DNA of 64,000 bases, taken from contig CAKPSX010000001.1 in NCBI GenBank assembly GCA_934184665.1, forward strand, positions 1,688 through 65,687, read 5' to 3'. The notes under the pieces were generated by a model. The model was given only the letters and a program-made list of their open reading frames with translations. It ran no database searches and was not told the DNA's origin. Shown here piece by piece: positions 6,683 through 64,000 of this stretch. The stretch's first letter is position 1; each line of letters opens with the position of its first letter. Position numbers and translations under genes: made by a program. Source of the stretch: an uncultured Clostridia bacterium. Lineage in GTDB: Bacteria > Bacillota > Clostridia > TANB77 > CAG-508.

Positions 6683-6713
6683 TAGATTCTCCTTTTAAAT
6701 AATTAAGTAAAAT

Positions 6714-7745: not shown

Positions 7746-7926
7746 TCCTCTCTTAATGTATAATCTATTTTGTAAGATTATATACATTTTAGTCGAGAAA
7801 ATCAAGTTTGAAACTAAAAGATTTTATTAGAAAAAAATAGATAAAAATAGAAAAAAATAGTTAGTAGTGTAATAATCTTGTTTTTCATAAAACTATAAAG
7901 AAAGTAGAAGAGATAAATAATAAAAA

Positions 7927-8211
7927 TTAATATTTTTTAAACAAATAAAGCTTTGGTCTAAACATATATTTTAATATATATTCTAGAACATAAACAAAAG
8001 GTTCTCCATTTAAACCAATTATACTAAATAATGTTATTGGAAAAGCTAAAGAAATTAAAAGAAAAATTTTAATATTCCAATTATTAAAGATTAAATGTAA
8101 AATCGAAAACACTAAAATATACCAAACAACATTAAAAATTAAAGTTGAATATGGAATAAAACCAAAAGCTTTACTCTCAAAATTATAATTTTGTGGAAAA
8201 ATAAATTTCAT
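7927..8211 (-). CDS. small two-TM membrane protein, TcpE-like T4SS component (tentative)
   Basis: A 94-aa ORF with two hydrophobic helices, lying in an operon with the VirB6-like and coupling-protein genes. Confidence 0.4.
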   Translation of the reverse strand: MKFIFPQNYNFESKAFGFIPYSTLIFNVVWYILVFSILHLIFNNWNIKIFLLISLAFPITLFSIIGLNGEPFVYVLEYILKYMFRPKLYLFKKY

Positions 8212-8267
8212 AATACCTCCTAAAGAATAAATATAAATAATAAAAAATTAAACAACAATATTAAGTG

Positions 8268-9137: not shown

Positions 9138-9145
9138 TTAGCCTC

Positions 9146-9463
9146 CTATGTAATTAAAGATTGAATAGTAGACAAGATAAGGTCGATGGCCAAAATAAAT
9201 GCATATGAAAACAAAGAACCTTTTATTAATTTTTTTCCTGTTCTAATTTTTTCTTCATCTCCAAAGCTGAATTTTCGCATAAGAGCACCTGTACAAACAG
9301 CAACTGCCGCAGCAGGTGTAGATATTTTTATAATCCAACTTTCAATATCTTGAAAAGCACTATTCAATTTATTGACAAGCTTAGGTGTTGCACCAAAAGA
9401 AATAGTATATAAACTAAAAATAAAAGTTATTGTCAAAATAAAAGTAAATAAAAATTTTTTCAT
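9146..9463 (-). CDS. small secreted/membrane protein, VirB2-like pilin candidate
   Basis: It has a signal peptide (MKKFLFTFILTITFIFSLYTISFGA) followed by two hydrophobic segments. It is 105 aa. Confidence 0.4.
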   Translation of the reverse strand: MKKFLFTFILTITFIFSLYTISFGATPKLVNKLNSAFQDIESWIIKISTPAAAVAVCTGALMRKFSFGDEEKIRTGKKLIKGSLFSYAFILAIDLILSTIQSLIT

Positions 9464-9478
9464 AAAACCTCCTATATA

Positions 9479-20800: not shown

Positions 20801-20812
20801 AGGGGGATGGAA

Positions 20813-25753: not shown

Positions 25754-25916
25754 ATTACCAAAAACATTATGGAAACCTTATGCAAATAACTGGAAAACCA
25801 GAAAAACAAGTCAAAAAAACAAAAAAATTGTCAAAAAAAATTGTAAAAATCTGAAAATTGTGATATCATATAAAGAGGATTAAAAGTAGAATATTATGAT
25901 AAATGGAGGAAAGATG

Positions 25917-49042: not shown

Positions 49043-50119
49043 ATGAAAGATCGGTATAGCAAGATTGTGCTGGAGGCTTGCAAGGGTGTAAGCTTCGCAT
49101 TCTCTGAAGGACAGGCAGGCCAGCTCATCATCAAAGCTTTAAAGGCTGATGAAAAGAGCAATGACACCAAGGAGAACATCAGCAAGAAAGTTGATGTTGT
49201 GGTTTCTGACAAAAACAGTGAAGATGTAAGCCCCACAAATGGTGCTAACAATATTGTTAGCAAAAAGGAGGAAGACTATGATATCTCCTCTGGTGCAGAT
49301 GTGACGGTCATCGAGAACTACATGAATCCTCCGATCCCGGAAGGATACAAGTATGTATCTGGAAAATGGGACAATGGATTTGTCATTGAGAAGAAACTCG
49401 ATAAGAGTGAATTCGTCTGGATTCCTGTTGGAGCGCTGAACCCTGATGGAACAATCGATGGTCAGAACTTCTGCGAGAAGTTCGGAAGAAGAAGAATTAC
49501 CCAGATTAGCCATGCTAATCAGAAGTTCACGATTGATGTGAACATGTACAAGGAACCTCTGGAGGGAGAATTCCTGAAGCAGTATGAGAGCGTAAAAAAG
49601 TATGGGGGATTCTATATCTCTCGATACAATATCTCGTCTGACTGGAAGGAATTCCCTCGGTCTGTCAAGGGCAGAATGCCTTTGACAAATATTACAGCCG
49701 AGGATGCAAAAGAAGTGGCAACTCGACTGGAAACTAACGGCTCGACTGTTAAGAGCCATCTTGTGTATGGGGCAGAGTATGACTCTGTTCTGGCTTGGCT
49801 GATTAAGTTCAAGATCAAAAGCAAGGAAGATGTTATGGAAGATTCCACCTATTGGGGAAACTTCTGGAGCAACTTTGATTCTCCGCAGTCTATCACTCAG
49901 ACTGGCAGCTTTGATGACTGGGCTGCAGGCGGTATTTATGACCTTGCGGGCAATGTGTCTGAATGGACGCAGGAGAAGAATGGTGATGGCAAATATATTG
50001 CCAGAGGTGGTAATGTCTACAGTAGCGAGAGGAAGGGAACAGTTTCTTCTCGCCATGAGCTGGGCAATAAGCGGAAAAACCGTGAAACTGGTTTCCGTAT
50101 TGCACTTTGGATTAAGTGA
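49043..50119 (+). CDS. formylglycine-generating-enzyme (FGE/SUMF1, DUF323)-family protein encoded in a compositionally foreign GC-rich island
   Basis: An RBS (AGGAGG) is present. The C-terminal FGE-family motifs are DLAGNVSEWTQE, YIARGGNVYSS and NRETGFRIAL. Codon usage is GC-rich (ctg, ggc, cag). The many overlapping antisense ORFs here are the usual artefact of high GC. Confidence 0.7.
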   Translation: MKDRYSKIVLEACKGVSFAFSEGQAGQLIIKALKADEKSNDTKENISKKVDVVVSDKNSEDVSPTNGANNIVSKKEEDYDISSGADVTVIENYMNPPIPEGYKYVSGKWDNGFVIEKKLDKSEFVWIPVGALNPDGTIDGQNFCEKFGRRRITQISHANQKFTIDVNMYKEPLEGEFLKQYESVKKYGGFYISRYNISSDWKEFPRSVKGRMPLTNITAEDAKEVATRLETNGSTVKSHLVYGAEYDSVLAWLIKFKIKSKEDVMEDSTYWGNFWSNFDSPQSITQTGSFDDWAAGGIYDLAGNVSEWTQEKNGDGKYIARGGNVYSSERKGTVSSRHELGNKRKNRETGFRIALWIK

Positions 50120-50259: not shown

Positions 50260-50335
50260 CGCGGGGTGGAGCAGTTGGCAGCTCGTTGGGCTCATAACCC
50301 AAAGGTCGGAGGTTCGAGTCCTCCCCCCGCAACCA
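50260..50335 (+). tRNA. initiator tRNA-fMet (anticodon CAU)
   Basis: The 5' end is CGCGGGG with a C1:A72 mismatch. The anticodon stem carries three G-C pairs (ttGGGctcataaCCCaa). The T-arm is GGTTCGAGTCC and the 3' end is CCA. Confidence 0.9.
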
Positions 50336-50410: not shown

Positions 50411-52822
50411 ACATTTATAAATAACAATATTACTGAAAAGGAAAAAGAGCTGAATTCAAAGCAAAAAGAATATAAAAATAGTTTAAATGAATATAACAGC
50501 AAGCAAAAAGAATTAGAGAAAGCAGAAGCTCAAATAAATTCTTCACAGGAAGAAATAGGTAGCAAAAAAGCAGAACTTGAAAATGGTAAAACTCAATATG
50601 AAAACGGAATTCAATCATTAAATGCTGGAATTGCAGAATGTGAAAAATTACTTCAAAATCCTAATTTACCAGAAAGTCAAAAACAAGTAATAGAGCAAAA
50701 ATTAGCAGGGTATAAGATTCAGCTAGAACAAACAAAAACAGCTTATGATGATTTTATAAATAACACATATAATTCAAGCATAAATGCACTAAATGAAGCA
50801 CAAAAAACATTAGATACAAAAAAAGCTGAATATAACAGTGGAAAGCAACAATTGGAAGATGCCAATACTCAACTACAATCAGCAAAAAAACAACTGGATA
50901 GCGGTAAAACGTCATTAAATTCTGCAAAAAGTAAATTGAAATCAGCGAAACAGGAATATAATACAAATAAGGCTAAATTAGATGAGGCGAAAACAGAGCT
51001 ACAAAATAAAGAGCAAGAATATAATGATAAATTGCAGGAATTCCAAGAAAAAGAGCCAGAAGCGGTTTCAGAAATAAATGATAATGAAGAAAAATTAGAA
51101 GATAGTAGAAAAGAATTGGATAAGTTATTATTTCCAACATATTCAATTGATAACAGAAGAGAATTGCAAGGAGGAGAAGGATATAGAATATATGAAACAG
51201 TATCAGAAATTGTAGATTCTCTAGCAAAAGTATTCCCAGTATTCTTATATTTTGTTGCTGCTTTGGTTACTTTAACAACAATGGCAAGATTCGTAGGAGA
51301 TGAAAGAATCAATAATGGAACTTTAAAATCACTTGGATATAGTGATCAAGATGTTATAAAGAAATTTACTATATATGGACTTGTGGCAGGAACAACAGGA
51401 ACAATAATAGGTGTTTTATTAGGACACACAATTATTCCAATGATAGTATATAATGCTTATCGTCATGGATTTACACTTCCAAAAATAGAATTACACTTTT
51501 ACTCAGGCATCACTATAGCAGCAATTATTTTATCTTTAATAAGTAGTGTTATTCCAGCAAGAATAATTGCGACTAAAGAATTAAGAGAAACAACAGCAAG
51601 CCTATTGCAACCTAAAGCACCAAAAGCAGGAACTAAGATAATGTTAGAAAGAATAAAACCAATGTGGAATAAAATGAAATTCACACATAAAGTTACTGCA
51701 AGAAATATTTTTAGATACAAAAAAAGAATGTTTATGACAATATTTGGAGTAGCTGGTGCAGCATCAATATTATTTGCGGGATTTAGTGTTCAATATTCTA
51801 TTTCTGGAATAAATGAAAGACAATTTGAACATATAATAAAATATGATGCAATAGTGGCTTTAAATGATAATCTAACAAATGATGAGGAAAACGAACTAGA
51901 AACTTTATTAAATGATGAAGCGGTTGACAGCTATACATCTGTATTTTATGAAGAAGTTTCAAAAACAGCAGGAAGAAATAATGATAAACAATCAATAAAA
52001 CTAATTGTACCAGAAAACACAGAAGAATTTAATAAATATATTTCTATTTTAAATAGAAAAACTGGTGAAAATATGCAACTAGAAGATGATGGAGTTGTAA
52101 TTTCAGAAAGATTATCTACACTTTTAAATGTAAAACAAGGAGATACAATTACTTACACAGATAGCACTGACAAAAAAAGAGAAGTCAAAATATCTGGAAT
52201 ATGTGAAATGTATGCAGGGCACTTTATTTGCATGAATGAAAATGAATATAAAAACATCTATGGAGAAGACCTAAAAACAAATGCAAAACTACTAATGTTC
52301 AAGGATTCAAGCTTAGAAAACACACAAAATCAATCTGCAAAATTTATGGAATTATCAGCAGTAAAAGGTGTTGTTCAAAACACAACATTATATAATCAGA
52401 TAAACACGATTGTAGAATCCTTAAATAAAATAATGATTGTATTAATCATTATTGCAGTATTACTTGCAATTGTTATATTATATAATTTAACTAATATAAA
52501 TGTTGCAGAAAGAATTAGGGAATTATGTACAATTAAAGTTTTGGGATTCTATGATAAAGAAACAACAATGTACATTTACCGAGAAACAATAATTTTATCA
52601 GCAATAGGAATTGTAGTTGGATGGATTATTGGAATAATTCTCCATAACTATATATTAACAGTTGTACCACCAGATGAAGTAATGTTTAATCCTGTTATTT
52701 GGATTGGGGCATATGTTATACCATTTGTTTGCATCTCAGTAGTAACATTTATTTTAAAATACTATGTAAATAGTAAATTGAAAAATGTTGATATGTTAGA
52801 AGCATTGAAATCAGTTGATTAG
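50411..52822 (+). pseudogene. 5'-truncated FtsX/MacB-type ABC permease (coiled-coil ectodomain + FtsX TM bundles), lacking its N-terminal TM1 and start
   Basis: The open frame begins right after the stop at 50408-50410, 30 nt past the tRNA terminator. It encodes about 145 aa of coiled coil with no ATG, GTG or TTG until the TTG at 50852. Downstream are FtsX hallmarks (FVAALVTLTTMARFVGDERINNGTLKSLGYS and a second FtsX repeat with TIKVLGFYDKE). Confidence 0.6.
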
Positions 52823-53151
52823 ACTAGAAGAGTAGAAAATTATATAGGTGAAGAGTATGAATATAGACGAGTATTATTCTACTTTAAAAGATGAAAAAAT
52901 ACGGAATAGTCATGATAAAAACTAGTTGGAAAAAAGCAAACAAGGATGATGAAAAAGATAATTATATAAAAAAATCATGTGTTATATAGAGTAACTCCAT
53001 ATTTTGAAGGCGATAATAAATTAGCAAATGGAGTAAATATAGAAGATAATGGAAAACTACATTTTAATGTGTATGTATATAATGTGCAAAATGGAATTGT
53101 TATTGATTATGCTACTGGAGAAAGCAAATTAGCAGAATAGGAGGCAAAATT

Positions 53152-53577
53152 GTGGATTTAAATATATTCAATAATAGGGAGATTAATAATAATAAAAATA
53201 ATGATTTTATAAGTACATTTATAGAAGAATTACAAAATGCACTTAAAAATATTATAAATGAAAGCATAGGTATGAACCAAAAAGAAAATGTATCAAATGA
53301 ATCTCATTTAAATAATGAAAACGATGTGCTAGAGGGATATAATTTATATGAAACAAAAAAAGTTTTCTTAGATAATAAAAGTTGGAAAGGAAATGATTTA
53401 GCTTGGGTAATAGATGATAAATCTGTTTGTTTATCAGAACATGGAGATGGCAGTCCATACTTTATATCTGAAATAGATTTACCAAAGAATGCAAAAGCCA
53501 GAGAAGTATATGAAAAAATAAATGGTAAGTATATTTACAATCCTAATATAACGGCTAAACTAAAAGAAATAACTTAA
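53152..53577 (+). CDS. hypothetical protein (141 aa, ORFan)
   Basis: An RBS (AGGAGG) is followed by a TTG start. There are no TM segments. It is preceded by decayed ORF fragments. Confidence 0.4.
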   Translation: MDLNIFNNREINNNKNNDFISTFIEELQNALKNIINESIGMNQKENVSNESHLNNENDVLEGYNLYETKKVFLDNKSWKGNDLAWVIDDKSVCLSEHGDGSPYFISEIDLPKNAKAREVYEKINGKYIYNPNITAKLKEIT

Positions 53578-53968
53578 TAATAAGGTGAAAAAATAACAAA
53601 ATTATATTTAGCTTACTCTTAAATTAATTTATTATTTATATTAATAAAATAATTGCATAGAAAAGTTTTGTAAATTAATGGTTTGCGGAGATTACTCATA
53701 AAGCGAAGGTATTTAGATTAAGTATTACCAACAAAACCAGAAGTGTCAAGGAATTGAACGTTCCTTGATTTTTTTGCTTTACTAAAAAAACGGCGAAAAA
53801 ACGGCGGAAGTTTTGAAAATGAAAACTTATTAGAAAAGAAAAGTACAATTATTATTGTTTTAAAGTGCAAAATTTGCACTTTAAGTTCGAGGTGTTAGGC
53901 AGTTTATTTTGAAAGAAAAAAGTGGTATAATGTGGAAAAAAGAAACTTGATAATATATGGAGGAATGT

Positions 53969-55075
53969 ATGATGTATAATTCAAAACTATCAAAAGATCC
54001 TTTTAAATCTACTATTAATGATTTAAAAATGTTCGAACAAACACAATATTGTTTTGAGTATATAAAACAAGAAAGTAATAGTAAATCGGATGAAGAAATA
54101 ATGGTACATGCGGAAATTGCATCAGCTTGTTTTAGACAAGCTAGTGAGTATTATAAAGCAGCAATAAGCGTTAGCTTGTGTACAAGTCCTTTATTATTTT
54201 CTTATGCACTTAATAATATATTAAAGGGAACTTGTTATTTAAAAACATTTGATAATGAAATTATCTCTGGATTTTCTAGTCATGGATTCAGTGTAAAAAA
54301 TGAAGATATTTATGAAAATATTTTAAAATCTAAGATACAAGTTAAATGGCATGGAGCAGCTGTTTCATTATTAAAATTATTTGGAAATTCGATAGAATCA
54401 CAAGAAATTGAATTTAATAAAATTTTAAGGCATATACCAGGAATAAGAGATACATATTTTAAAACTACAGGAGAAGTATCATTATTAGCCATCAAAGATA
54501 AAAATGACACATCTAAATATATAATTAAAGGTAATGCATTAAATGATGAAATAAGTAATATAGCTCAGGAATTTGGAATTGTAGGAACTATTATACCAAG
54601 AGAAGAGTCTTGTTATTGTTATCTTAATATGAAATGTAAAAATAGTATAGATGAAGGAATATATTCAAAAGATAATATTTTCTATAGAAATTATTTAAAT
54701 ATACCAGATAGATTTAAAGAGGGAATAAAAGATATAAATATTATATTCTATTGCTATTTATTAATTATGTCTTATGGGATGCTAGTTAGATATAATGCTC
54801 ATAAATGGGAAAAATTTATCGATAAAAAAATTTCAAAAGAAGCAACATTAATTGAATTGTCAGTGACTAATGCTGTAGTAAATTTTTATTATCAAATACA
54901 TTATATATTGTTCAATTATTATTATAAGGAGGATTCATATAATGATTTGGATGTAAAGAAAGTAATAAGGGAATCAACTAAGGATATTATGAACAATATT
55001 ACAAGGGAAATAAGGCATCATAATTTACAATATAATAGTCATGAATTATTACCATGGGATGAAAATTATAAATGA
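53969..55075 (+). CDS. hypothetical cytoplasmic protein (about 368 aa), candidate defence/Abi-like component
   Basis: An RBS (GGAGG) precedes MMYNSK. There are no TM helices. The protein is Cys/aromatic-rich and I recognise no catalytic motif. It is the first gene of a co-oriented three-gene cluster. Confidence 0.45.
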   Translation: MMYNSKLSKDPFKSTINDLKMFEQTQYCFEYIKQESNSKSDEEIMVHAEIASACFRQASEYYKAAISVSLCTSPLLFSYALNNILKGTCYLKTFDNEIISGFSSHGFSVKNEDIYENILKSKIQVKWHGAAVSLLKLFGNSIESQEIEFNKILRHIPGIRDTYFKTTGEVSLLAIKDKNDTSKYIIKGNALNDEISNIAQEFGIVGTIIPREESCYCYLNMKCKNSIDEGIYSKDNIFYRNYLNIPDRFKEGIKDINIIFYCYLLIMSYGMLVRYNAHKWEKFIDKKISKEATLIELSVTNAVVNFYYQIHYILFNYYYKEDSYNDLDVKKVIRESTKDIMNNITREIRHHNLQYNSHELLPWDENYK

Positions 55076-55099
55076 TTAGCAAAAATGGAGGAATAAAGA

Positions 55100-55786
55100 A
55101 TGCAAAATATAATTAATACAATTGCAACTATTATAGTTTCAATAGGTGGAACAGGGATTATAATTTTAGGAATATCAAAATACATTGGAGGAATACTTGC
55201 AAAAAGTATAGAAGAAAAATATAAAAATAAACTTGATAAAGATTTAGAAGAATATAAAGGAAAAATAAATGAACGATTAAATAAATTAGATAAGATTGAA
55301 GAAAAAGCATTATATATATCTAAATTTAATTATGATAATGAATATAAAATTTATATGGAAATATGGCCAAAATTAAATGATTGTATTTCAAAAACGATGA
55401 GATTGTATCCTATAGGTATTGAAAATGTTCCAATTGATGAGGAAGAACTTAAAAAATATAAAGAAAACAAATATGAGGAGTTTCGTAATAGCTTTAATGA
55501 GTTTGTTCTTTGTGTTGATAAATATGCTCCGTTTTATCAAGAGGAATATTATAATTATTTTAATTTAATAAAAGACGAATGTTTTTCTATAGGTGATATG
55601 TTTTTTATGTATGAATTTGAAGTAAAATATAATGAAAGTTTTAGAGGATGCAGGGATTTGAAAATGACAACAAAAGAGTGGAAGGAAGTTAAAGGAAAAG
55701 AAGATAAAATAATAAAAATAAAAAAGGAACTTTTAGAAAAAATAAGAGAATATTTAAACGGATTAAAATTGGAGGAAAATAAGTAG
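55100..55786 (+). CDS. hypothetical protein with a single N-terminal TM helix (228 aa)
   Basis: The TM helix is MQNIINTIATIIVSIGGTGIIILGISKYIGGILA, followed by a charged coiled-coil-like domain. Confidence 0.45.
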   Translation: MQNIINTIATIIVSIGGTGIIILGISKYIGGILAKSIEEKYKNKLDKDLEEYKGKINERLNKLDKIEEKALYISKFNYDNEYKIYMEIWPKLNDCISKTMRLYPIGIENVPIDEEELKKYKENKYEEFRNSFNEFVLCVDKYAPFYQEEYYNYFNLIKDECFSIGDMFFMYEFEVKYNESFRGCRDLKMTTKEWKEVKGKEDKIIKIKKELLEKIREYLNGLKLEENK

Positions 55787-56304
55787 TGAATAAATATGAG
55801 ATATTAAAAGATATAATAATACCAATTTTAGCTTCTATAATTGGAGGGATATTCACTTATATTGGAGTATATATAACAATAAAACATGAGAAAAATAAAG
55901 AAAAAGAAGAACAAATATTGTTTAATAAGCCATTATTTTGTAGATTAGATTATAGGCAAGAATATGATGCTAAAAAGGCAGTTGATTTTGTTTTAGGAGT
56001 TGGAAATTTCGATGAAAAAGCGGGTCAAATATTTGGAGTTATAAAAAATACAGATAATGCTATATTAATTATTGATGGAGTTACAGTTAATGGAAAAAAA
56101 TATAAATCGATATATGGAGATGTAGTTGATAAGAATCAGATATTTAATTTGTATGTGAATGTTTCAGAAAAACTAAAAGAAGATGATGAGGTTATCTTTA
56201 TAGTAAAAGATATTATGGAGAACGCTTACAAATATAAAGTAAATATAGAATATAAAGATGAAGAAAATTGTGAAATGATAGAATTTAAAGAAATAAAAAA
56301 ATAG
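55786..56304 (+). CDS. hypothetical protein with a single N-terminal TM helix (172 aa), translationally coupled to the upstream gene
   Basis: The GTG start overlaps the upstream stop (TAGTG). The TM helix is IIIPILASIIGGIFTYIGVYITI. Confidence 0.45.
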   Translation: MNKYEILKDIIIPILASIIGGIFTYIGVYITIKHEKNKEKEEQILFNKPLFCRLDYRQEYDAKKAVDFVLGVGNFDEKAGQIFGVIKNTDNAILIIDGVTVNGKKYKSIYGDVVDKNQIFNLYVNVSEKLKEDDEVIFIVKDIMENAYKYKVNIEYKDEENCEMIEFKEIKK

Positions 56305-56333
56305 GCGGGATTAATTATAAAATCTCGTCTATT

Positions 56334-57476
56334 TTAATTAGTTTTAACAGTAAGAAATTCTTCCATAACATTAGCAACATCCTTAAACTCATCTTCAAAG
56401 AAATGAGAATAAATTCTATCAGTAGTTTGCACACTTGAATGACCAACTTTTCTACTAATAATCTGAGTTTGAATACCCTTAGAAATCATAAGAGTAACAT
56501 TAGTATGTCGCAATCCATGAAAAGTAATTCTTTTTAAATTATGTTTCTTAATAACTTGATCCAAAATCTTAGTGGGTGTATCGGGATGCATATCAGCACC
56601 ATACTCAGTAGTAAAAATTCTTTTACTACCTTGCCATTTAGAACCAAGTAAAAGTTTTTGTTTTAATTGTTGGTTTTGATATTTTCTTAATATCTGTACA
56701 GTAGTATCGGAAATATAATTTACTCTTTCACTATGTTCAGTTTTAGTACCTTTTTCAAAAATCTTGCCATAAGCATATTGAGTAGTTTTATTAATCTCAA
56801 CTCTACGAGTCTCAAAATCAATATCTTTCCAAGTAAGTCCAGTTAATTCACCTCGTCTACATCCTAAATCTAATGCTAACATTATAATTGCTTGATATTT
56901 TATAGGCTCTTGAGCTAGTGCAGTAATAAGTTTTTCTACTTCATCAGGAGTATAAAATTGTATATTGGTTTTAGCTCTTTTAGGTTTATCAATCTTACTA
57001 TTAGGATTATTCTTAATATATTCACATTTAACAGCATATACTAACATATTATTTATAATACAATAATAACTTTGAATTGTAGTAGGACTAAGAGGCTTAC
57101 CTCTGGCAGATGTATAACCGTGTCTTAAAAAGTGATAAAAATTTTCAAGTATTTTTACATTTAATTCTTTTACTTTTACATATCCAATTTTCTTCATAAC
57201 TAAACGAAGTCTATATTCATAATTAATGTATGTTTTAGGTGAAAGAATATCTTTTTGATACTTTAAATATTCCATGCTTAAATCTTTTACAGTAAGATTA
57301 TTTTTTTGAAAAGTTGATCCATCTCTAAGCATGGTTTTAAGTTCATATTCTCTAAGTTTAGCTTCACTTTTTTTACCAATAAAAGTTTCGTAATGCCTTA
57401 TTTTTGTTCCACCATTATATCCAAGAACAATTTCTATTTGATATTTTTTATTTCTTTCAATTTCTCGTACACTCAA
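56334..57476 (-). mobile_element. int: tyrosine site-specific integrase (phage integrase family)
   Basis: Catalytic residues are R (ALDLGCRRGELTGL), HxxR (FHGLRHTNVT) and Y (VQTTDRIYSHF). An N-terminal arm/SAM-like domain is present. Confidence 0.85.
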
Positions 57477-58363
57477 TTTTTTACCTCCTTGTTCATAGAA
57501 GTAATAAGCTTTTTATAATCCTCAGGAAGCGTTTCAATATTTTCTTGATTGTAAGTTTCAATTAAATTGTTTTTTATCAATTCTGTGATTTCGAATAAAC
57601 AAAATTTTAAATTTCTTTTTGTTTCATCATAATAACAACTACTAAGTGAACTTATAGTATTTAATAAAACATTTAACTTATTTTTATTCAAAGATTTTTT
57701 TGTACAAGTTTCACAATACTTTTTTAATTGATTTAACTCATTACTTAAATCTAAACAGGTATCGTCATTTAAAGTAGAATGTATTGATTTAGATAAATTA
57801 TTTTTTAAAGTATCAATTTCAGTATTCCATATAGAGTAAAGGGCTTTTAAGTCTTTTTTGTTTTCTAAACAGTAGTATAGATAATCTTCAAGTTTTTCAA
57901 TGTTATAAAAATATTGTATAGATTTTAATACATTATTAAGACAATTATATTCATGTAATAAAGCTGTAAAATCTTTTAAATCAATGTTTTCTAACCATTT
58001 ACTAAATACTATTGGAGCAATCTTATCTTCAACTAAAGATAATCTTAATTCATCAGGAATACGATTGTTGGTATATTGTATATCAAGGATATTTTCAATT
58101 GCATCATCAGATAGTTTTAATTTTTTACCTATATCAACAGATTCATTTGTCTTGTTTTCACAATCTTCATCTAATAAGTATTCATATGTGACATTATAAA
58201 ATTCTTTCAACATTTTTAATTGTATAGTGTTTGGAATTCTTTCTATAGTTGTATTTTCATAGTTTCTTATAGATTGAATACCTATTCCAAGTTCAGAGCA
58301 TACTTGCTCTTGAGTCATTCCTTTTTCTTCTCTTAATAATTTTAATTTTTCAGAAAGTTTCAT
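57473..58363 (-). CDS. XRE-family HTH transcriptional regulator with a C-terminal uncharacterised domain
   Basis: The N-terminus is MKLSEKLKLLREEKGMTQEQVCSELGIGIQSIRNYENT. The gene has a 4-nt overlap with the integrase start. Confidence 0.75.
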   Translation of the reverse strand: MKLSEKLKLLREEKGMTQEQVCSELGIGIQSIRNYENTTIERIPNTIQLKMLKEFYNVTYEYLLDEDCENKTNESVDIGKKLKLSDDAIENILDIQYTNNRIPDELRLSLVEDKIAPIVFSKWLENIDLKDFTALLHEYNCLNNVLKSIQYFYNIEKLEDYLYYCLENKKDLKALYSIWNTEIDTLKNNLSKSIHSTLNDDTCLDLSNELNQLKKYCETCTKKSLNKNKLNVLLNTISSLSSCYYDETKRNLKFCLFEITELIKNNLIETYNQENIETLPEDYKKLITSMNKEVKN

Positions 58364-58549
58364 AATTTTCTCCTTCCATGTTTGAAAAATATATCAAAAT
58401 AAATTTCAAACATCTTTGTATGTATTTATTGAATTAAATACATAATTGTTGTTTAATATCTTTATCAACACGATAATGTTTATTATAATCACATTATACA
58501 TAGTTGTGTTGCAAATGTCAAGATAATAATAAAGATTGGAGGGAAAAAT

Positions 58550-58723
58550 ATGGAAAATGAAGAAGAAAAGCTAAATCAAATAGTTAATGAATTAAGAAGA
58601 GAAAAGGCTAGAATTTGGAGAAATAACAATAAAGAAAAAGTAAAAGAAATTAACAAAAGATATTGGCTAAATAAAGCTAAAAAAGAATTAGCAAGAAGAG
58701 AAAACAAAGAAGAGGTGAAATAA
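58550..58723 (+). CDS. small basic protein (57 aa), not in the ORF track
   Basis: An RBS (attggaggg) precedes MENEEEKLNQIVNELRREKARIWRNNNKEKVKEINKRYWLNKAKKELARRENKEEVK. The stop lies 2 nt before the xis start. Confidence 0.4.
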   Translation: MENEEEKLNQIVNELRREKARIWRNNNKEKVKEINKRYWLNKAKKELARRENKEEVK

Positions 58724-58725
58724 TC

Positions 58726-58920
58726 ATGAATGAAGTATTTAATATTAAAGAATTAGCAAATTATTTACATTGTAGCGAATCAACAGTAAGAAAGTTGGTT
58801 CGCAATAAAGCAATTCCAAGTTTTAGAATTGCAAACAGAATATTTTTTAGAAAGAATTTTATAGATGTATGGATTGATAATCAATGCAGTAGTAATTGTG
58901 AGGTGACTTGCGATGAATAA
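58726..58920 (+). CDS. xis: excisionase-family HTH DNA-binding protein (Xis-like)
   Basis: The sequence IKELANYLHCSESTVRKLVRNKAIPSFRIANRIFFRKNFIDVWIDNQ matches the excisionase/MerR-like HTH pattern. Confidence 0.6.
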   Translation: MNEVFNIKELANYLHCSESTVRKLVRNKAIPSFRIANRIFFRKNFIDVWIDNQCSSNCEVTCDE

Positions 58921-59076
58921 AAATAAAAAAAGAGAAAAAAGAATGTATTACATAAGCGAAACAGAATACATATATTTTCCTCTAATAGTCCGTTCAAAGA
59001 CCTATTTGTATTCTACTATAAATACAAATAAAAATCAATTAGTAAAATGTATTTTATGCAGTAAGTAGGTGATTTT

Positions 59077-59529
59077 ATGGCAAAAACTAAAAGACCAAAA
59101 CCACCTGTAAATTATAGCTTTGAAAGCACAAATAATAGATATGATTTTACTAAGATATGTAGAGATATGCAAAGATCAGAAGCATGGAAACAATTAAAAC
59201 CAAGGCAAATAGGACTATACTTTTTGCTTAAATCAAAATTTACTGTTAATTCTAAAACTCTTGAAAATAATGCAGAAAATATTTCATTTACTACAAGTGA
59301 AGCTAAAAGATACTATGGTGATTTAAGAACTTTTAGGGCAGATATGGATATCCTTATTAATTTAGGATTTATAAAACAAGTCATGAGTGGAGTGCCTAGA
59401 ATGGAAGCATCTATTTATGGCTTTTCTGATAGATGGAAAGATTATGGAACAGATAAATTTTATATCCCTGATAAAGATAAAAGATATAAAAAGAAATCTA
59501 AAGAAAAGCAATTAAATTTATTGAATTGA
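59077..59529 (+). CDS. hypothetical mobile-element protein (150 aa), possibly a replication or DNA-binding protein
   Basis: A basic N-terminus and a KPRQIGLYFLL segment are present. Its context is the integrase/xis module. Confidence 0.35.
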   Translation: MAKTKRPKPPVNYSFESTNNRYDFTKICRDMQRSEAWKQLKPRQIGLYFLLKSKFTVNSKTLENNAENISFTTSEAKRYYGDLRTFRADMDILINLGFIKQVMSGVPRMEASIYGFSDRWKDYGTDKFYIPDKDKRYKKKSKEKQLNLLN

Positions 59530-59870
59530 TGGTAATAATATAAATGATGTGTTGTTTCACACATATTAAAGGACAAAAATAAAAAAGAAGCTAAAAGTTA
59601 AAGAAAGTCCTAAAAACAGATAATTATAATAGAATTTGTGGTTGTGTGATTTAACACATATATATATATGAATTTAAGTTTTAATATATGTGATTTTACA
59701 TATATGATATGTGTAAATTAACATACGATAAAAAACATCCCCCGAGGGGTAACGATTTATAATTTGGATTTTTTCAAGACCCACAGCTCACCTACATTCA
59801 CACAAAATAAAATTTTTACGTGAGTTTTTTGGAAAAATTAAAATAATCTTAGAAAAAGGAGGAAAAGAAG

Positions 59871-60290
59871 ATGATTAAAACAAATCAAAAAAATAAAATA
59901 GAAAAAAGTTTAAATGAAAGAATAGAAGAAAATAAAATGTATTTTATAAAATTAGATAGAATGAATAACAAAAAATTTGAAGAAAGAAAAATCAGAAGAG
60001 AAAAGATTCAAAAAATGTGGAAACAACCTAAAGGCAATAAATATATAGAACTATATGAAGGATTATGTAGATATGCAATTAAGCATGGAAACAGTATTAA
60101 TTATAAAACAGAGAAATTCTTAAATGATTTTTACAAAGATAATAAAGAAACATTACAAGATATGAGAATCTGTGAAATAATAGAAGGATTAAAAATGTTA
60201 AATCTTATAGAATTAATTAATATTGATGATGATAGTATAAAAATAACTGATTATAAAGCCGTACTTCAAATAAAAGAAATGATAAGATGA
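59871..60290 (+). CDS. hypothetical protein (139 aa)
   Basis: An RBS (aaaggagg) is present. The protein is basic and I recognise no motif. A hairpin terminator follows at about 60296-60330. Confidence 0.4.
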   Translation: MIKTNQKNKIEKSLNERIEENKMYFIKLDRMNNKKFEERKIRREKIQKMWKQPKGNKYIELYEGLCRYAIKHGNSINYKTEKFLNDFYKDNKETLQDMRICEIIEGLKMLNLIELINIDDDSIKITDYKAVLQIKEMIR

Positions 60291-60465
60291 AAACAACAAA
60301 TTGCTAGTAGATAAACTACTGGCTTCTTTATTTATTTTATAAATATATTATATTTTATGATATATTATTATTTTTTTTGGATAAAATATATATATTTTAT
60401 TGTAAAATAATATATTATATGATATAAAATAATTATAAATATAATAATTATTATAGAGGTGAAAA

Positions 60466-60690
60466 ATGGAAAAGAAAGAAAAATCACAATCTATTAAAGA
60501 TGAAGTAAAAGGTTATATAACATTGAGTGGTTGGCAAATGGGAGAAGTCGCTGATAGATTGAGCGAAAGAAAAAGTAAAGTTGCATTACAAAATTTATCA
60601 AATAAACTTACTAAAGGAACAATAAAGTATTCGGAAGTTAAAAAGATAGCAGAAATAACAGGCTATGAGATTGAATGGAAGAAAAAATAG
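60466..60690 (+). CDS. small possible DNA-binding/controller protein upstream of mod (74 aa)
   Basis: An RBS (agaggtg) is present. A helix-rich segment reads GWQMGEVADRLSERKSKVALQNLSNKL. The gene ends 10 nt before the mod start. Confidence 0.35.
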   Translation: MEKKEKSQSIKDEVKGYITLSGWQMGEVADRLSERKSKVALQNLSNKLTKGTIKYSEVKKIAEITGYEIEWKKK

Positions 60691-60699
60691 GAGGAAGTT

Positions 60700-62664
60700 A
60701 TGATTAAAGATATTATTGAAAACAATGACAATGTAGATGTGAATAAAAGTAAAATAGAAAAATTAAAACAAGTAATACCAAACTGTTTTGATAAACATGG
60801 AAATTTAGATATTGAATTATTAAAAAAAGAGTTTAGTGATAGTTTAGATTTCACAAAAGAAAGTTTTGAACTTAATTTTTTAGGAAAATCATATGCTAAA
60901 ATGGTTGCTGGATTAGATACAGAAACAGTTATAGAACCTGATATAAAAAACAATTTAAAAGAAGAAAACAAAAACAGTAAAAATATTTATATAAGTGGTG
61001 ACAATTTAGATGCATTAAAACACTTATTAAAAGCATATGAAAGAAAGATAAAATGCATTTATATAGATCCTCCATATAATACAGGTAGTGATGGATTTGT
61101 TTATAATGATACATTTTGTTTTTCAAAAAAGAATTTAATGGAAAAATTAGATGTTAGTGAAGAAGAAGCTGAACGAATCATAAATTTGACATCTTCAAAC
61201 TCTTCTTCTCATAGTGCATGGTTGACATTTATCCTTCCAAGGATAATTTTAGGAAAAAATCTTTTAAAGGAAAACGGGGCTATATTTATTTCTATTGGTG
61301 AAGATGAGTTTTCTAATTTAAAATTACTTTGTGATAATGTATTTGGAGAAGAAAACTATTTAACAACTATTTCAAGACTTATGAAATCTGGTGGCAATAA
61401 AGGAGAATTTTTTTCGCCTAATATAGACTACGTTTTAGTATATGCAAAAAATAAATATGAATTAGAGCCTTTTAGAGAAGAACTAAGTGAAGATTTGGTT
61501 AATAACATATATAACAAAATAGACGATGATGGTAACAATTATAGAGAAATGGGATTATATCAAGCAGGCTTGGAAATAAGACCAAACCAAAGATATTATA
61601 TTCAATGCCCAGATGGATCTTATGTTATACCAAAAGGAAATACTTTTCCTGAAAGAATAGGACAATGCGAAAAAGTAATACCAGAAAGTGGAGATGGTGT
61701 ATGGAGATGGATACCAGAAAGATTTCTTGTTGAATTAGAGCAAGGTAATATAATTTTTAAAGAAACATCAACATCAGCTTTGGTTGACGAAAAAGGTAAT
61801 AAATCTAAATGGAACATTTATACAAAAATAATGTTAAATGATAGACAAGAAACTGGTAAAGTTCCCGTTAATTTTATTGGAGATTGTGAAAATAGAAAAA
61901 GTTCTGCAGAATTAAAAGAGTTAGATATTCCATTTGATTTTGCAAAACCAACAGATATGCTTACGAAATTAATTAATTTTATGAAATTTGAAGAAAATGA
62001 TATTATCTTAGATTATTTTTCTGGGTCTGCCAGCACAGCACATGCAATATTAAGGTTAAATAGTGATGAAAAATATGAAGGAAATACAAGACGATTTATT
62101 ATGGTTCAATTAAACGAAAAATGCAAAGAGAATAGTGAAGCATTTAAGAAGGGATACAATACTATAGATGAAATAGGGCAAGAAAGAATAAGAAGGGCAG
62201 CTAAACAAATAAAGGAAAATACAAATGCAGATATAGATTATGGATTCAAACACTATATATTGAAAGAAACACCAGATGATTTATTAAATAAATTAGAATT
62301 ATTTAAACCAGAGATTGTAAATGATAATTACAATATATATAAGGAATATGGAATAGATACTATTTTAGAAACATGGAAATTGAAAGATGGATATGAATTT
62401 ACAGCAAATATAGATATGATTGATTGTGGTGGCTATGAAGCATATAAATGCAAAGAATGTTTATACTTAATAAATCCTAATATAACTGTAAAAAATATAC
62501 AAGCACTATTAGATAAATATAATCAAGATGATACATTTGTATGTGATAAATTAGTGATATTTGGATATTCTTTTAGATTCGATGAAATAGAAATGATCAA
62601 AAACAATATAAAACAGGTAAAGAATTTTAAGAATATAGACGTTAAAGTATATACAAGATATTAG
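60700..62664 (+). CDS. mod: Type III restriction-modification system methyltransferase (Mod; beta-class N6-adenine MTase)
   Basis: Motif IV (IYIDPPYNTGSD) lies N-terminal to motif I (ILDYFSGSASTAHA), with a variable TRD between them. The protein is 654 aa and lies directly upstream of a helicase-like res gene. Confidence 0.85.
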   Translation: MIKDIIENNDNVDVNKSKIEKLKQVIPNCFDKHGNLDIELLKKEFSDSLDFTKESFELNFLGKSYAKMVAGLDTETVIEPDIKNNLKEENKNSKNIYISGDNLDALKHLLKAYERKIKCIYIDPPYNTGSDGFVYNDTFCFSKKNLMEKLDVSEEEAERIINLTSSNSSSHSAWLTFILPRIILGKNLLKENGAIFISIGEDEFSNLKLLCDNVFGEENYLTTISRLMKSGGNKGEFFSPNIDYVLVYAKNKYELEPFREELSEDLVNNIYNKIDDDGNNYREMGLYQAGLEIRPNQRYYIQCPDGSYVIPKGNTFPERIGQCEKVIPESGDGVWRWIPERFLVELEQGNIIFKETSTSALVDEKGNKSKWNIYTKIMLNDRQETGKVPVNFIGDCENRKSSAELKELDIPFDFAKPTDMLTKLINFMKFEENDIILDYFSGSASTAHAILRLNSDEKYEGNTRRFIMVQLNEKCKENSEAFKKGYNTIDEIGQERIRRAAKQIKENTNADIDYGFKHYILKETPDDLLNKLELFKPEIVNDNYNIYKEYGIDTILETWKLKDGYEFTANIDMIDCGGYEAYKCKECLYLINPNITVKNIQALLDKYNQDDTFVCDKLVIFGYSFRFDEIEMIKNNIKQVKNFKNIDVKVYTRY

Positions 62665-62674
62665 GAGGTAAAAT

Positions 62675-64000
62675 ATGAAACTTGAAAGAGGATTGAAACA
62701 TCAAAATGATGCGGTTAATTCTATTATAAGAGTATTTGAAGATGTAGAAATAGAAAAAACAGATAGCCTTACTGCCAATCCTTATATTGATTTAAACTCT
62801 GCCAATATTGTTAGTAATATTAAGAAAATACAGGAAAATAATAATGTTCCGAAAGAAATGAAGAAATATATTGGAATAACAGACAATTATTTGAATATCG
62901 ATATAAAAATGGAAACTGGAACAGGTAAAACATTTACTCAAATTAAAACAATTTATGAATTGAATGAGAAATATGGATTTAATAAATTTATTATTGTTGT
63001 ACCAACATTACCAATTAAAGCAGGAACACAACAATTTATCATTTCGAACGATACAAAGAAATTTTTTGAAGATGAATATAATCAAGTAGAAATAGAATTA
63101 AGATTGGTTGAAAGTTTGCAAAAGAAAAAAGGTAGAGATTATTTTCCAAGTGTAATCAGAGAATTTGTAACTGCTTCAAATTTAAATAGCAAAAAAATTC
63201 AAGTAATGTTAATTAATTCACAGTTAATTACAAATGGAAAAATGCTTACGAAAGAATACGATACAACAATATTGGATGATTTAACAAATCCGAGTGAAGC
63301 AATTAAAGCCACAAAACCGATATTAATTATTGATGAACCACATAAATTTGGAAAAGAAAATGTAACTTTTAAAAAAATAAAAGAAATATTAACACCTCAA
63401 TGTATAATAAGATTTGGAGCGACTTTCCCAAATAAAAACAGAAATGAAAAAGATTATCAAAATTTAATATATAATTTATCAAGCATAGATGCTTTTAATA
63501 ATAATTTAGTCAAAGGTGTAATTGCAGAGTATGTTCCAACATATTCTAATAATAATATTAGGATTAAATTACTTGATGTAAAGAACAAAGAAAAGTGCAT
63601 AATTCAAAGAATAGAAGAAAATGCCAAAAAGTCATTTGAGTTAAATAAAAATGATACTTTATCTATTGTTCATGAAGATTTTGATGGTGTAGAGATAATA
63701 GGCATTACTAAGAACTCTATATTATTATCTAATGGTATTGAAGTAGCTAAGGGAACAGAGCTTTCTCCAGAAAGTTATTCTATGTCATATCAGGATATGA
63801 TGATAGAAACTGCATTAGAAAGACACTTTGAAATTGAAAAAGAAAATTTTCAAAAAGGTATAAAAACGTTAGCTTTGTTTTTTATTGATGATATTTCAGC
63901 ATATAGAAAAATTGACAACAAGCCAACATATATATTAGATTCATTTGAAAGAATTTTAAAAGATAAAATGAGAATGAAAGTATTAGAGATTGAAGATGGA
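62675..64000 (+). CDS. res: Type III restriction enzyme Res subunit (SF2 helicase-nuclease), 3' end beyond the window
   Basis: An RBS (AGGAGG) is present. Walker A is METGTGKTFT and the DEAH box is ILIIDEPHKF. It is co-oriented with mod, 10 nt downstream. Confidence 0.8.
   Translation, partial: MKLERGLKHQNDAVNSIIRVFEDVEIEKTDSLTANPYIDLNSANIVSNIKKIQENNNVPKEMKKYIGITDNYLNIDIKMETGTGKTFTQIKTIYELNEKYGFNKFIIVVPTLPIKAGTQQFIISNDTKKFFEDEYNQVEIELRLVESLQKKKGRDYFPSVIREFVTASNLNSKKIQVMLINSQLITNGKMLTKEYDTTILDDLTNPSEAIKATKPILIIDEPHKFGKENVTFKKIKEILTPQCIIRFGATFPNKNRNEKDYQNLIYNLSSIDAFNNNLVKGVIAEYVPTYSNNNIRIKLLDVKNKEKCIIQRIEENAKKSFELNKNDTLSIVHEDFDGVEIIGITKNSILLSNGIEVAKGTELSPESYSMSYQDMMIETALERHFEIEKENFQKGIKTLALFFIDDISAYRKIDNKPTYILDSFERILKDKMRMKVLEIEDG

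What the first reader, a model, noticed from the sequence alone, without database searches (positions are those of the whole stretch)
53152..56304. Cluster of four co-oriented ORFan genes (two with single N-terminal TM helices) wedged between the breakpoint and an integrase/Type III R-M: candidate novel defence or abortive-infection module
Four genes are involved.
- Genes of 141 and about 368 aa encode soluble proteins with no recognisable catalytic motifs.
- Genes of 228 and 172 aa each encode one N-terminal TM helix and a charged C-terminal domain. They are translationally coupled by a TAGTG overlap.

The architecture, a soluble sensor-like protein plus small TM effector-like proteins, resembles many recently described anti-phage systems. 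The location, adjacent to an integrase/XRE/Xis module and a Type III R-M, is the classic defence-island neighbourhood. I recognise none of these proteins, which makes this the most likely place for an undescribed system in the right half of the window.
Basis: inference. Interest (0 to 1): 0.65.

Follow-up and report, generated by a model that had tools for sequence, protein, structure and literature searches.

The report
Uncharacterised cargo genes beside an integrase
Three of the four genes form an operon in the cargo slot between a tRNA-Met attachment site and the integrase of a defence-gene-laden mobile element; they are plausible but untested new phage-exclusion genes, not orphans and probably not one system, and the fourth gene is a nuclease partner outside the element.

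Summary
The four ORFs exist as described, but they are not ORFans and not one cluster.

**orf1 (53152-53577)**
- It lies outside the mobile element.
- It follows a 53-codon remnant of an Endonuclea_NS_2 nuclease.
- It is 60% identical to the gene that follows an intact copy of that nuclease 17 kb to the right, so it is probably a nuclease partner or immunity gene.

**orf2-4 (53969-56304)**
- They form one operon bracketed by terminator-like hairpins.
- The operon sits between a degenerate tRNA-Met 3' half (attL, 53695-53739) and the integrase of a ~16.7 kb integrative element.
- That element also carries Type III R-M, HNH+CHAT and HTH-Fic.
- orf2 is a Pfam YaaC-like protein. orf3 belongs to a large unnamed family (phrog_26391; 2513 clusters). 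orf4 belongs to a small family.
- All three are under purifying selection (dN/dS 0.11-0.17).
- None matches PADLOC or any solved structure.

**Are they one system?**
- Every combination occurs elsewhere: YaaC alone, orf3 alone, orf4 alone, orf3+orf4, and YaaC+orf4.
- Most of these sit next to restriction or other defence genes, or as prophage morons.

**Best reading:** stacked, separable accessory genes for phage exclusion or abortive infection, not a proven sensor-effector system. Function is inferred from context only.

The parts
50260..50335 (+). Intact tRNA-Met (CAT), the chromosomal anchor of the island
   Evidence: ARAGORN. Its 3' half is the sequence repeated in degenerate form at 53695 and at L025 19631.
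52979..53140 (+). C-terminal remnant (53 codons) of an Endonuclea_NS_2-type nuclease gene, outside the element
   Evidence: 79% identical to residues 95-152 of the 152-aa Endonuclea_NS_2 protein at L025 20302-20760. The DNA repeat window 52966-53572 versus L025 20570-21150 is ~80% identical.
53152..53577 (+). orf1, 141 aa: partner (probable immunity or inhibitor) gene of the nuclease cassette; not part of the orf2-4 operon
   Evidence: 60% identical to the 127-aa gene directly downstream of the intact nuclease. That paralogue has a weak DUF3006 hit. orf1 has no Pfam, PADLOC or NCBIfam hit. It lies left of the attL junction.
53695..53739 (+). Degenerate 3' half of tRNA-Met: attL-type junction, left end of the integrative element
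   Evidence: Homology with L001-L005 and L029 starts at 53692-53695 although the left flanks differ. L003 has an intact tRNA-Met at this position. A second tRNA-half copy lies at L025 19631-19676, equivalent to window position ~70330, beyond the window.
53745..53769 (+). Terminator-like hairpin after the tRNA half; separates orf1 from orf2-4
   Evidence: 2 terminator-like sites found against 0.2 expected. Conserved in L001-L005.
53969..55075 (+). orf2, YaaC-like protein (368 aa from the second in-frame ATG after a GGAGG)
   Evidence: Pfam PF14175, E 1.4e-22. Homologues are 367-370 aa. AlphaFold model pLDDT 91.8. No PDB or BFVD fold match. No PADLOC hit. dN/dS 0.13.
55100..55786 (+). orf3, 228 aa: N-terminal TM anchor, long helix, then a helical bundle; member of a large unnamed family
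   Evidence: phrog_26391, E 1e-14. 2513 representative clusters, nearly all of the 150 listed ~160-260 aa. Model. No PDB match. dN/dS 0.11.
55786..56304 (+). orf4, 172 aa: N-terminal TM anchor plus a ~120-aa C-terminal domain; start overlaps the orf3 stop
   Evidence: 34 homologous clusters at 56-98% identity. No family or PDB hit. dN/dS 0.17. Found without orf3 or YaaC in L058-L061.
56298..56335 (+). Terminator-like hairpin between the convergent orf4 and integrase genes
56334..57476 (-). Tyrosine integrase of the element
   Evidence: Phage_integrase / Phage_int_SAM_5 on the identical gene in L025. 68-69% identical orthologue follows the same triad in L001-L005.
57473..58363 (-). XRE-type HTH regulator (296 aa)
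   Evidence: HTH_3 / HTH_19.
58726..58920 (+). Xis/AlpA-like HTH_17 protein
   Evidence: PF12728 on the identical gene in L025.
60700..62664 (+). Type III R-M Mod methyltransferase (element cargo)
   Evidence: PADLOC MTase_III, E 8.5e-151.
62675..64000 (+). 5' part of the Type III Res gene; runs off the window
   Evidence: L025 11976-14903 matches PADLOC REase_III, E 1.6e-256.

Best explanation
orf2-orf4 are a three-gene operon in the att-proximal cargo slot of a ~16.7 kb tRNA-Met integrative element. The slot lies between the tRNA-half attL and the convergent integrase gene. The element is otherwise loaded with defence genes.

The three products belong to three separate uncharacterised families:
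- a YaaC-like cytosolic protein;
- a ~220-aa membrane-anchored helical protein from a very large family;
- a ~170-aa membrane-anchored protein from a small family.

Each family recurs on its own, and in every pairwise combination, beside restriction or other defence genes or as a prophage moron. I therefore read the operon as a stack of separable accessory host-protection genes, not one obligate system.

Most likely mechanism (inferred, not shown):
- orf3 and orf4 are anchored in the membrane by an N-terminal helix, with the C-terminal domain probably cytoplasmic (lysines follow the TM helix; my reading of the sequence).
- They act at the membrane against incoming phage. They either block DNA entry like small prophage Sie proteins, or kill or depolarise the infected cell.
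- The YaaC-like protein acts in the cytoplasm. It often sits directly beside restriction nucleases.

orf1 is unrelated to this operon. It is the partner gene of a decayed Endonuclea_NS_2 nuclease cassette in an older island segment.
For: Shown:
- Element anatomy. The homology block with L001-L005 and L029 starts at 53692-53695, at a tRNA-Met 3' half. A second tRNA half lies 16.6 kb to the right. L003 has an intact tRNA-Met at the junction.
- Element cargo: Type III R-M, CHAT and Fic/PDC-S04.
- Operon bounds: terminator-like hairpins on both sides.
- Purifying selection on all three genes.
- Separable components:
  - orf3+orf4 with a different 311-aa upstream gene, behind the same tRNA half (L030/L032);
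  - orf3 alone next to an integrase remnant (L034);
  - orf3-like overlapping a DUF3800 protein that matches PDC-S51 at 1e-111;
  - orf3-like next to Septu PtuAB;
  - orf3-like between what I read as capsid, head-tail and tail genes on IMG/VR viral contigs;
  - orf3-like after gpA/DinI at the end of the P2-like phage Cartapus;
  - orf4-like alone after GmrSD, and after OLD+UvrD+DpnII genes;
  - YaaC plus orf4-like without orf3, after a C5-MTase and an HNH_2 protein;
  - YaaC overlapping the stop of a Type II REase;
  - YaaC after McrBC;
  - YaaC before Type I R-M;
  - YaaC before an HNH/PDC-S50 protein;
  - YaaC alone abutting a different integrase family.

Established knowledge:
- Small prophage Sie proteins with a hydrophobic N-terminus are encoded in lysogeny modules (PMC7693887).
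Against: - No phenotype was tested. 'Defence' rests on guilt by association.
- None of the three proteins hits PADLOC or any annotated PHROG.
- No fold match gives a biochemical handle.
- The att-YaaC-orf3-orf4-int block is conserved as a unit at ~77% DNA identity while the rest of the element varies. This could mean the genes serve the element itself.
- orf3 and orf4 are translationally coupled and all three genes share one operon, which is also compatible with a single system.
- In L006 a YaaC homologue is again followed by two N-terminally anchored membrane proteins (one with two predicted TM segments) that are not homologous to orf3/orf4. That hints at a functional YaaC-membrane-protein link.
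Confidence: 0.5

Rival explanations
1. One reading: one obligate three-component abortive-infection system. The YaaC-like protein senses infection, and the two membrane-anchored proteins are the effectors that permeabilise the membrane.
For: - One operon with short gaps (24 bp and an overlap) between two terminator-like hairpins.
- The triad is kept intact between the 75%-identical and the 100%-identical variants.
- A 47%-identical YaaC in L006 is followed by two different N-terminally anchored membrane proteins, one with two predicted TM segments.
- The orf3 TM helix is rich in conserved small residues (SxGGxG...G). I infer that this fits helix packing or oligomerisation.
Against: - All sub-combinations and solo occurrences exist.
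- The orf3 family has ~2500 clusters, against 78 found for this YaaC subfamily.
- orf3-like genes are solo morons in phages.
- The L006 membrane partners are not detectably homologous to orf3 or orf4.
Confidence: 0.2
2. The genes serve the mobile element itself and do not defend the host. They could be an addiction (toxin-antitoxin-like) module, or an entry-exclusion function that keeps out competing elements of the same family.
For: - The att-orf2-orf3-orf4-int block is the conserved backbone (77% DNA identity), while the regulator and cargo to the right of int vary.
- Elements pile up in tandem at this tRNA-Met, so competition is real.
- Small membrane proteins are typical exclusion factors of conjugative elements (my own knowledge).
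Against: - The slot content varies behind the same tRNA half: YaaC-orf3-orf4, 311aa-orf3-orf4, or orf3 alone.
- orf3-like genes sit in siphophage structural modules and in a P2-like phage.
- YaaC homologues sit beside unrelated integrases, serine recombinases and restriction nucleases.
- No relaxase or transfer genes are present in this element.
Confidence: 0.15
3. orf3 and orf4 are lysis-type (holin/antiholin) or ordinary housekeeping membrane proteins, and YaaC is a housekeeping protein, as in Bacillus subtilis.
For: - orf4 has a faint match to Phage_holin_5_2 (E 0.05, 14 bits against a cut-off of 29).
- The name-giving yaaC of B. subtilis is a chromosomal gene (my own knowledge).
Against: - The holin hit covers only the TM helix and is far below threshold.
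- No endolysin is nearby.
- Every context found is a mobile element or a defence island.
- The genes lie inside an integrative element absent from related genomes at the same site (L003 versus the others).
Confidence: 0.05

Closest known systems
Pfam YaaC-like family (PF14175)
   Same: orf2 and all 19 aligned homologues match over the whole model, far above the gathering score.
   Different: The family has no known function. I found no literature on it. This subfamily carries an extra C-terminal helix and lives on mobile elements.
Prophage superinfection-exclusion proteins of the Sie2009 type (Lactococcus P335 phages)
   Same: Small proteins with a hydrophobic N-terminus, membrane-associated, encoded in lysogeny modules of temperate elements. 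Two-gene versions are known (PMC7693887). orf4 (172 aa) and orf3 (228 aa) have this architecture and sit beside the integrase gene.
   Different: No sequence similarity: no Sie-annotated PHROG was hit. The carrier here is not a prophage. The genes lie on the att side of int, not between int and the repressor. No injection-block phenotype is known.
RexAB of phage lambda (cytosolic sensor plus membrane effector; from my own knowledge)
   Same: A soluble protein encoded together with a small membrane protein on a temperate element, expressed in the carrier cell.
   Different: No homology. RexB has four TM helices. The components here are separable and occur alone.
PADLOC candidate systems PDC-S51 (DUF3800) and PDC-S50 (HNH)
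   Same: orf3-like genes overlap the stop of PDC-S51 genes, and YaaC homologues directly precede PDC-S50-like genes.
   Different: orf2-4 themselves match no PADLOC model. Those candidates are catalogued as single-gene systems (my reading of the 'S' label), so the neighbours are not defined parts of them.
HEPN superfamily
   Same: The YaaC model has two alpha-hairpins with a large insert between helices 2 and 3. An invariant Arg lies at the end of helix 3. HEPN is described as having inserts between helices 2 and 3 and its Rx4-6H motif at the end of helix 3 (PMC3710099).
   Different: The spacing is R-x3-H, not Rx4-6H. The His is replaced by Asn or Asp in 5 of 19 homologues. No HEPN family was hit by HMMER. 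No HEPN structure appears among the 50 Foldseek matches listed.
Nuclease toxin / immunity gene pairs (for orf1 only)
   Same: orf1 and its 60%-identical paralogue each follow an Endonuclea_NS_2 nuclease ORF within about 12 bp.
   Different: Inhibitor activity is untested. orf1's own nuclease is reduced to 53 codons. The paralogue has only a sub-threshold DUF3006 hit.

Membership tests
Pfam YaaC (PF14175) | Match to the family HMM above the gathering score over most of the model | tested here: met
   80.9 bits against a cut-off of 27; model positions 3-304 of 307. 19 of 19 homologues match.
Known or candidate anti-phage systems (PADLOC-DB 2.0.0) | HMM match of any component | tested here: not met
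   No hit at E<=1 for orf1-4. No hit either for the Cartapus, L041 and L052 orf3-like proteins or the L006 YaaC.
PHROG 26391 (phage protein family, function unknown) | HMM match | tested here: met
   orf3: E 1.1e-14, residues 8-179 against profile positions 4-169 of 203.
HEPN superfamily | Rx4-6H motif at the end of helix 3 | tested here: not met
   R274-Y-N-A-H278 is Rx3H. The His is not invariant. Motif definition from PMC3710099.
HEPN superfamily | Four-helix up-down core with an insert between helices 2 and 3, similar to solved HEPN structures | tested here: inconclusive
Sie2009-type superinfection exclusion | [quoted passage not shown] | tested here: met
   TM helices at residues 3-29 (orf3) and 5-32 (orf4). 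orf4 ends 30 bp from the integrase gene. The criterion is architectural only (PMC7693887).
Sie2009-type superinfection exclusion | Sequence homology to a characterised Sie protein, or a block of phage DNA injection | tested here: not met
   No Sie-annotated PHROG was hit. The phenotype cannot be tested with these tools.
Holins | Match to a holin family; adjacent endolysin | tested here: not met
   Phage_holin_5_2: E 0.05, 14.3 bits against a cut-off of 29.2, TM helix only. No endolysin in the element.
tRNA-integrating tyrosine-recombinase element | Integrase gene plus flanking direct repeats of a tRNA 3' part, with variable flanks in other genomes | tested here: met
   tRNA-Met halves at window 53695 and at L025 19631. 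An intact tRNA at the junction in L003, and different left flanks in L001-L005 and L029.
Nuclease-immunity pair (orf1) | Small gene directly downstream of a toxin-type nuclease gene, co-duplicated with it | tested here: met
   The nuclease remnant plus orf1 is ~80% identical in DNA to the Endonuclea_NS_2 gene plus 127-aa gene.
Nuclease-immunity pair (orf1) | Inhibition of the cognate nuclease | not testable with these tools
   Needs co-expression or binding assays.

The most novel reading that the evidence does not exclude
YaaC-like proteins are a widespread, unrecognised class of restriction-associated immune proteins. They would act as a second-line guard or sensor that sits beside Type I, II, III and IV restriction nucleases on mobile elements. 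In this element the guard would be wired to two membrane-anchored effectors (orf3, orf4). orf3 would itself represent a very large new family (~2500 clusters) of single-gene phage-exclusion proteins, carried by integrative elements, Firmicute siphophages and P2-like coliphages.
Probability: 0.12. Interest if true: 0.7.

Novelty: new variant of a known kind. Interest (0 to 1): 0.42.

Why it matters
- If the genes protect against phage, they would add up to three new protein families to the anti-phage repertoire.
- One of them, the orf3 family, is very large. It spans gut Firmicute elements, siphophage morons and the cos-proximal end of a P2-like coliphage.
- The att-to-integrase interval of tRNA-Met elements would then be a practical place to mine for new cargo. 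Its content changes behind an identical tRNA half.
- The repeated placement of YaaC-like genes directly beside restriction nucleases, once with overlapping stop and start codons, would give a first functional lead for a Pfam family with no known role.
- Such uncharacterised candidates in defence islands are numerous, and nothing here goes beyond association.

Tried and rejected
- **Sequence searches.** Profile searches of PDB sequences for all three families found nothing. PADLOC, NCBIfam and Pfam gave nothing beyond YaaC.
- **Collections.** YaaC is absent from the phage and plasmid collections and from IMG/VR. orf1 is absent from plasmids.
- **L006 partners.** hhalign of the two membrane partners of the L006 YaaC against the orf3 and orf4 profiles showed no homology.
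- **Literature.** Searches for YaaC, PF14175 and yaaC in B. subtilis returned nothing on function. Cluster look-ups gave no source names.
- **Rejected: canonical HEPN RNase** for YaaC, on motif spacing and the non-invariant His.
- **Rejected: holin**, because the hit is sub-threshold and covers only the TM helix.
- **Rejected: one four-gene module including orf1**.
- **DGR check.** For the GC-rich FGE-sulfatase ORF I looked for a diversity-generating retroelement template repeat in the window. None was found.
Full report
**1. The observation**

The four co-oriented ORFs are real:

| gene | coordinates | length | start |
|---|---|---|---|
| orf1 | 53152-53577 | 141 aa | GTG, 8 nt after AGGAGG |
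| orf2 | 53957-55075 | 372 aa as an ORF | see below |
| orf3 | 55100-55786 | 228 aa | ATG |
| orf4 | 55786-56304 | 172 aa | GTG |

- Homologues of orf2 are 367-370 aa, and a GGAGG precedes the ATG at 53969.
- The orf3 stop and the orf4 start overlap (TAGTG). Homologues of orf4 begin at the same aligned column.
- A hydropathy scan finds one N-terminal TM segment in orf3 (residues 3-29) and one in orf4 (residues 5-32).
- Against the ~75%-identical orthologues in L001, dN/dS is 0.13, 0.11 and 0.17, similar to the integrase at 0.18. These are genuine genes under purifying selection.

**2. They are not ORFans**

- orf2 matches Pfam YaaC (PF14175) at 80.9 bits against a cut-off of 27.
- Homology searches found 78, 61 and 34 clusters for orf2, orf3 and orf4.
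- Where the source is known, the hits come mostly from gut or animal metagenomes and from MAGs labelled Bacilli, Clostridia or Erysipelotrichaceae.
- A profile of the orf3 family finds 2513 representative clusters at E<=0.001. Nearly all of the 150 listed are about 160-260 aa and match along most of their length.
- orf3 also matches phrog_26391, a phage family of unknown function (E 1e-14).
- None of the four proteins matches PADLOC or NCBIfam.

**3. They are not one cluster: the anatomy of the locus**

L025, a Hadza gut metagenome contig, is identical to window 50700-64000 and continues 8.7 kb further to the right.

The left junction:
- Comparison with related loci shows that conserved DNA starts at window 53692-53695, whatever lies to the left.
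- That point is the start of a tRNA-Met 3' half. In L003 a complete tRNA-Met gene sits there, directly after comEA. In L001, L002, L004 and L005 only the 3' half is present. In the window the half is degenerate (53695-53739).
- The window's intact tRNA-Met is at 50260-50335.

The right junction:
- A second tRNA-half copy lies at L025 19631-19676, equivalent to about 70330 in window coordinates.

The locus is therefore a ~16.7 kb tRNA-Met integrative element with this gene order:
- attL
- orf2, orf3, orf4
- integrase (-), XRE regulator (-)
- Xis-like HTH_17 protein and small ORFs
- Type III Mod and Res
- a DUF6076 protein (-)
- HNH_4 + CHAT
- HTH-Fic
- attR

PADLOC recognises the Type III pair. 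It also matches the Fic protein to candidate PDC-S04 (1e-105) and the CHAT protein weakly to PDC-S66.

Other points:
- Terminator-like hairpins at 53745-53769 and 56298-56335 bracket orf2-4 as one operon (2 found against 0.2 expected).
- L029 carries the same element at 98% identity from 53694 to 59836, with a different left flank and a different right-hand cargo. The junction is thus a real recombination site, and the element has been mobile recently.

**4. orf1 belongs to something else**

- orf1 lies left of attL, in the 3.4 kb between the intact tRNA-Met and the tRNA half. It sits there with an FtsX-domain ORF and a 53-codon ORF.
- That short ORF is 79% identical to the C-terminus of a 152-aa Endonuclea_NS_2 nuclease encoded just beyond attR.
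- orf1 is 60% identical to the 127-aa gene that directly follows that nuclease.
- The two DNA stretches are about 80% identical over ~600 bp.
- orf1 is therefore the surviving partner of a decayed nuclease cassette, most likely an immunity or inhibitor gene. That last step is an inference. Its paralogue has only a sub-threshold DUF3006 hit.

**5. What orf2-4 are**

orf2 (YaaC-like):
- The AlphaFold model is confident (pLDDT 91.8). It has a helical core interrupted by an alpha/beta insert.
- Invariant residues include R56, N82, N83, K86, H105, R274, N276, W280, D285, K287 and H311.
- The topology resembles the published description of HEPN: two alpha-hairpins, an insert between helices 2 and 3, and an invariant Arg at the end of helix 3 (PMC3710099).
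- However, the motif is Rx3H, the His is Asn or Asp in 5 of 19 homologues, and no HEPN family or structure was retrieved. I do not file it as HEPN.

orf3:
- The model (pLDDT 72) shows a TM helix, a helix of about 80 residues, and a three-helix bundle. The conserved motifs are LYISKxQYDNEYKIYxEIW, KYAPFY and IREYL.
- It has no PDB match.

orf4:
- No structural or family handle was found.

**6. Co-occurrence: the decisive evidence**

The full triad next to this integrase family occurs in several variants (window/L025/L026/L029; L001-L005; L031; partly L038). Every other combination also occurs:

| combination | where | neighbours |
|---|---|---|
| orf3 + orf4, with an unrelated 311-aa upstream gene | L030, L032 | behind the same tRNA half; followed by a Type II MTase |
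| orf3 alone | L034 | behind the tRNA half, next to an integrase remnant |
| orf3-like, overlapping the upstream gene's stop | L008-L012, L035 | DUF3800 protein that matches PADLOC PDC-S51 (1e-111) |
| orf3-like | L040 | next to Septu PtuA/PtuB |
| orf3-like | L036; IMG/VR contigs L052-L056 | between what I read as capsid, head-tail and tail genes of siphophage-like contigs |
| orf3-like (gp47) | E. coli P2-like phage Cartapus | after gpA and DinI at the genome end; in P2-like phages I know this as a defence hotspot (my own knowledge) |
| orf4-like alone | L058-L060; L061 | after GmrSD; after OLD-TOPRIM + UvrD + a DpnII-type REase |
| YaaC + orf4-like, no orf3 | L066 | after a C5 MTase and an HNH_2 protein |
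| YaaC, overlapping the upstream gene's stop | L062-L065 | Sau3AI/MutH-like Type II REase (PADLOC 3e-102) |
| YaaC | L068 | after McrBC |
| YaaC | L013 | before Type I R-M |
| YaaC | L018-L021 | before an HNH protein matching PDC-S50 |
| YaaC alone | L069-L071 | 7 bp from a different integrase family |
| YaaC + two non-homologous membrane proteins | L006 | serine recombinases upstream; no known defence gene seen |

Two conclusions follow:
- All three families are residents of mobile-element cargo and defence islands.
- The three genes are separable. The att-to-int interval behaves as a cargo slot whose content is exchanged.

**7. Mechanism**

*Shown:* membrane anchoring of orf3 and orf4 predicted from hydropathy; operon structure; position in the element; the association pattern.

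*Inferred:*
- The C-terminal domains of orf3 and orf4 are probably cytoplasmic, because lysines follow the TM helix and few charges precede it (my reading of the sequence).
- The small-residue-rich TM helix of orf3 (SxGGxG...G) suggests self-association.
- The closest functional analogues are small prophage superinfection-exclusion proteins with a hydrophobic N-terminus encoded in lysogeny modules, which include two-gene versions (PMC7693887). Membrane-acting abortive-infection effectors are a second analogue.

*My ranking:*
- I favour 'stacked separable phage-exclusion or Abi genes' (0.5).
- Next comes a single three-part sensor-effector system (0.2).
- Then an element-maintenance or element-exclusion role (0.15). 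The conserved att-orf2-3-4-int block at 77% DNA identity keeps this alive.
- Last is lysis or housekeeping (0.05).

**8. Novelty and verdict**

- No component belongs to a described defence system, and I found no literature on YaaC function.
- If active, these would be new protein families doing a known kind of job, hence 'new variant of a known kind'.
- The evidence is associative only, and uncharacterised candidates of this kind are common, so interest is moderate.
- The most valuable leads are the size and phage/MGE spread of the orf3 family, and the repeated placement of YaaC beside restriction nucleases.

Noticed in passing
window 49043-50119: An ORF with an FGE-sulfatase domain (26.4 bits against a cut-off of 23.3) has GC 0.40-0.50 in a ~0.25 GC genome. 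The GC rise is sharply bounded by the ORF, which lies between comEA and tRNA-Met. It looks foreign. No DGR-style template repeat was found in the window.
   Followed up: partly
window 50852-52822: An FtsX-domain permease ORF (656 aa, TTG start) lies in the segment between the intact tRNA-Met and the tRNA half. It may be a remnant of an older island segment.
   Followed up: no
L001, L002, L004, L005 at 7728; L030 and L032 at 4801; L034 at 5720: tRNA-Met 3' halves without the 5' half are preceded by different defence cargo (Type I R-M, Fic, nSTAND, Type ISP, Mrr and others). This indicates tandem accretion of elements at one tRNA-Met, with a variable cargo slot right behind the tRNA half.
   Followed up: partly
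L062-L065 (e.g. L062 4119-6622): A YaaC homologue (65% identical) starts inside the stop region of a Sau3AI/MutH-like Type II restriction endonuclease gene. A divergent C5 methyltransferase lies beside the pair, and a convergent Mob_Pre relaxase gene follows.
   Followed up: partly
L008-L012 and L035 (e.g. L035 2791-4700): An orf3-like gene (44% identical) starts at the stop of a DUF3800 protein that matches the PADLOC candidate PDC-S51 (E 1e-111). That candidate may in fact have a membrane partner.
   Followed up: partly
L052-L056 (IMG/VR contigs), L036: orf3-like genes (36-41% identical) are inserted as single genes between what I read from the translations as capsid, head-tail-connector and tail genes of siphophage-like contigs. 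That is a typical moron position.
   Followed up: partly
L025 16513-17848 (beyond the window, equivalent to about 67200-68550); L001 2964-4074: A small HNH_4 protein (87 aa) is followed by a CHAT-domain protein (352 aa; weak PDC-S66 and SAVED_CHAT hits). In L001 an HNH_4 protein is followed instead by a DUF8370 protein at the corresponding place. This is a possible two-gene defence candidate.
   Followed up: no
L029 (QZLN01000002.1) 4595-10736: The same element, 98% identical from window 53694 to 59836, lies in a different genomic flank (an ASCH-domain gene abuts the tRNA half) and has a different right-hand cargo. This is evidence of recent mobility and cargo exchange.
   Followed up: partly
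window 15959-35283: Four consecutive giant ORFs (1613, 1648, 1665 and 1477 aa) lie on the + strand. I did not examine them.
   Followed up: no
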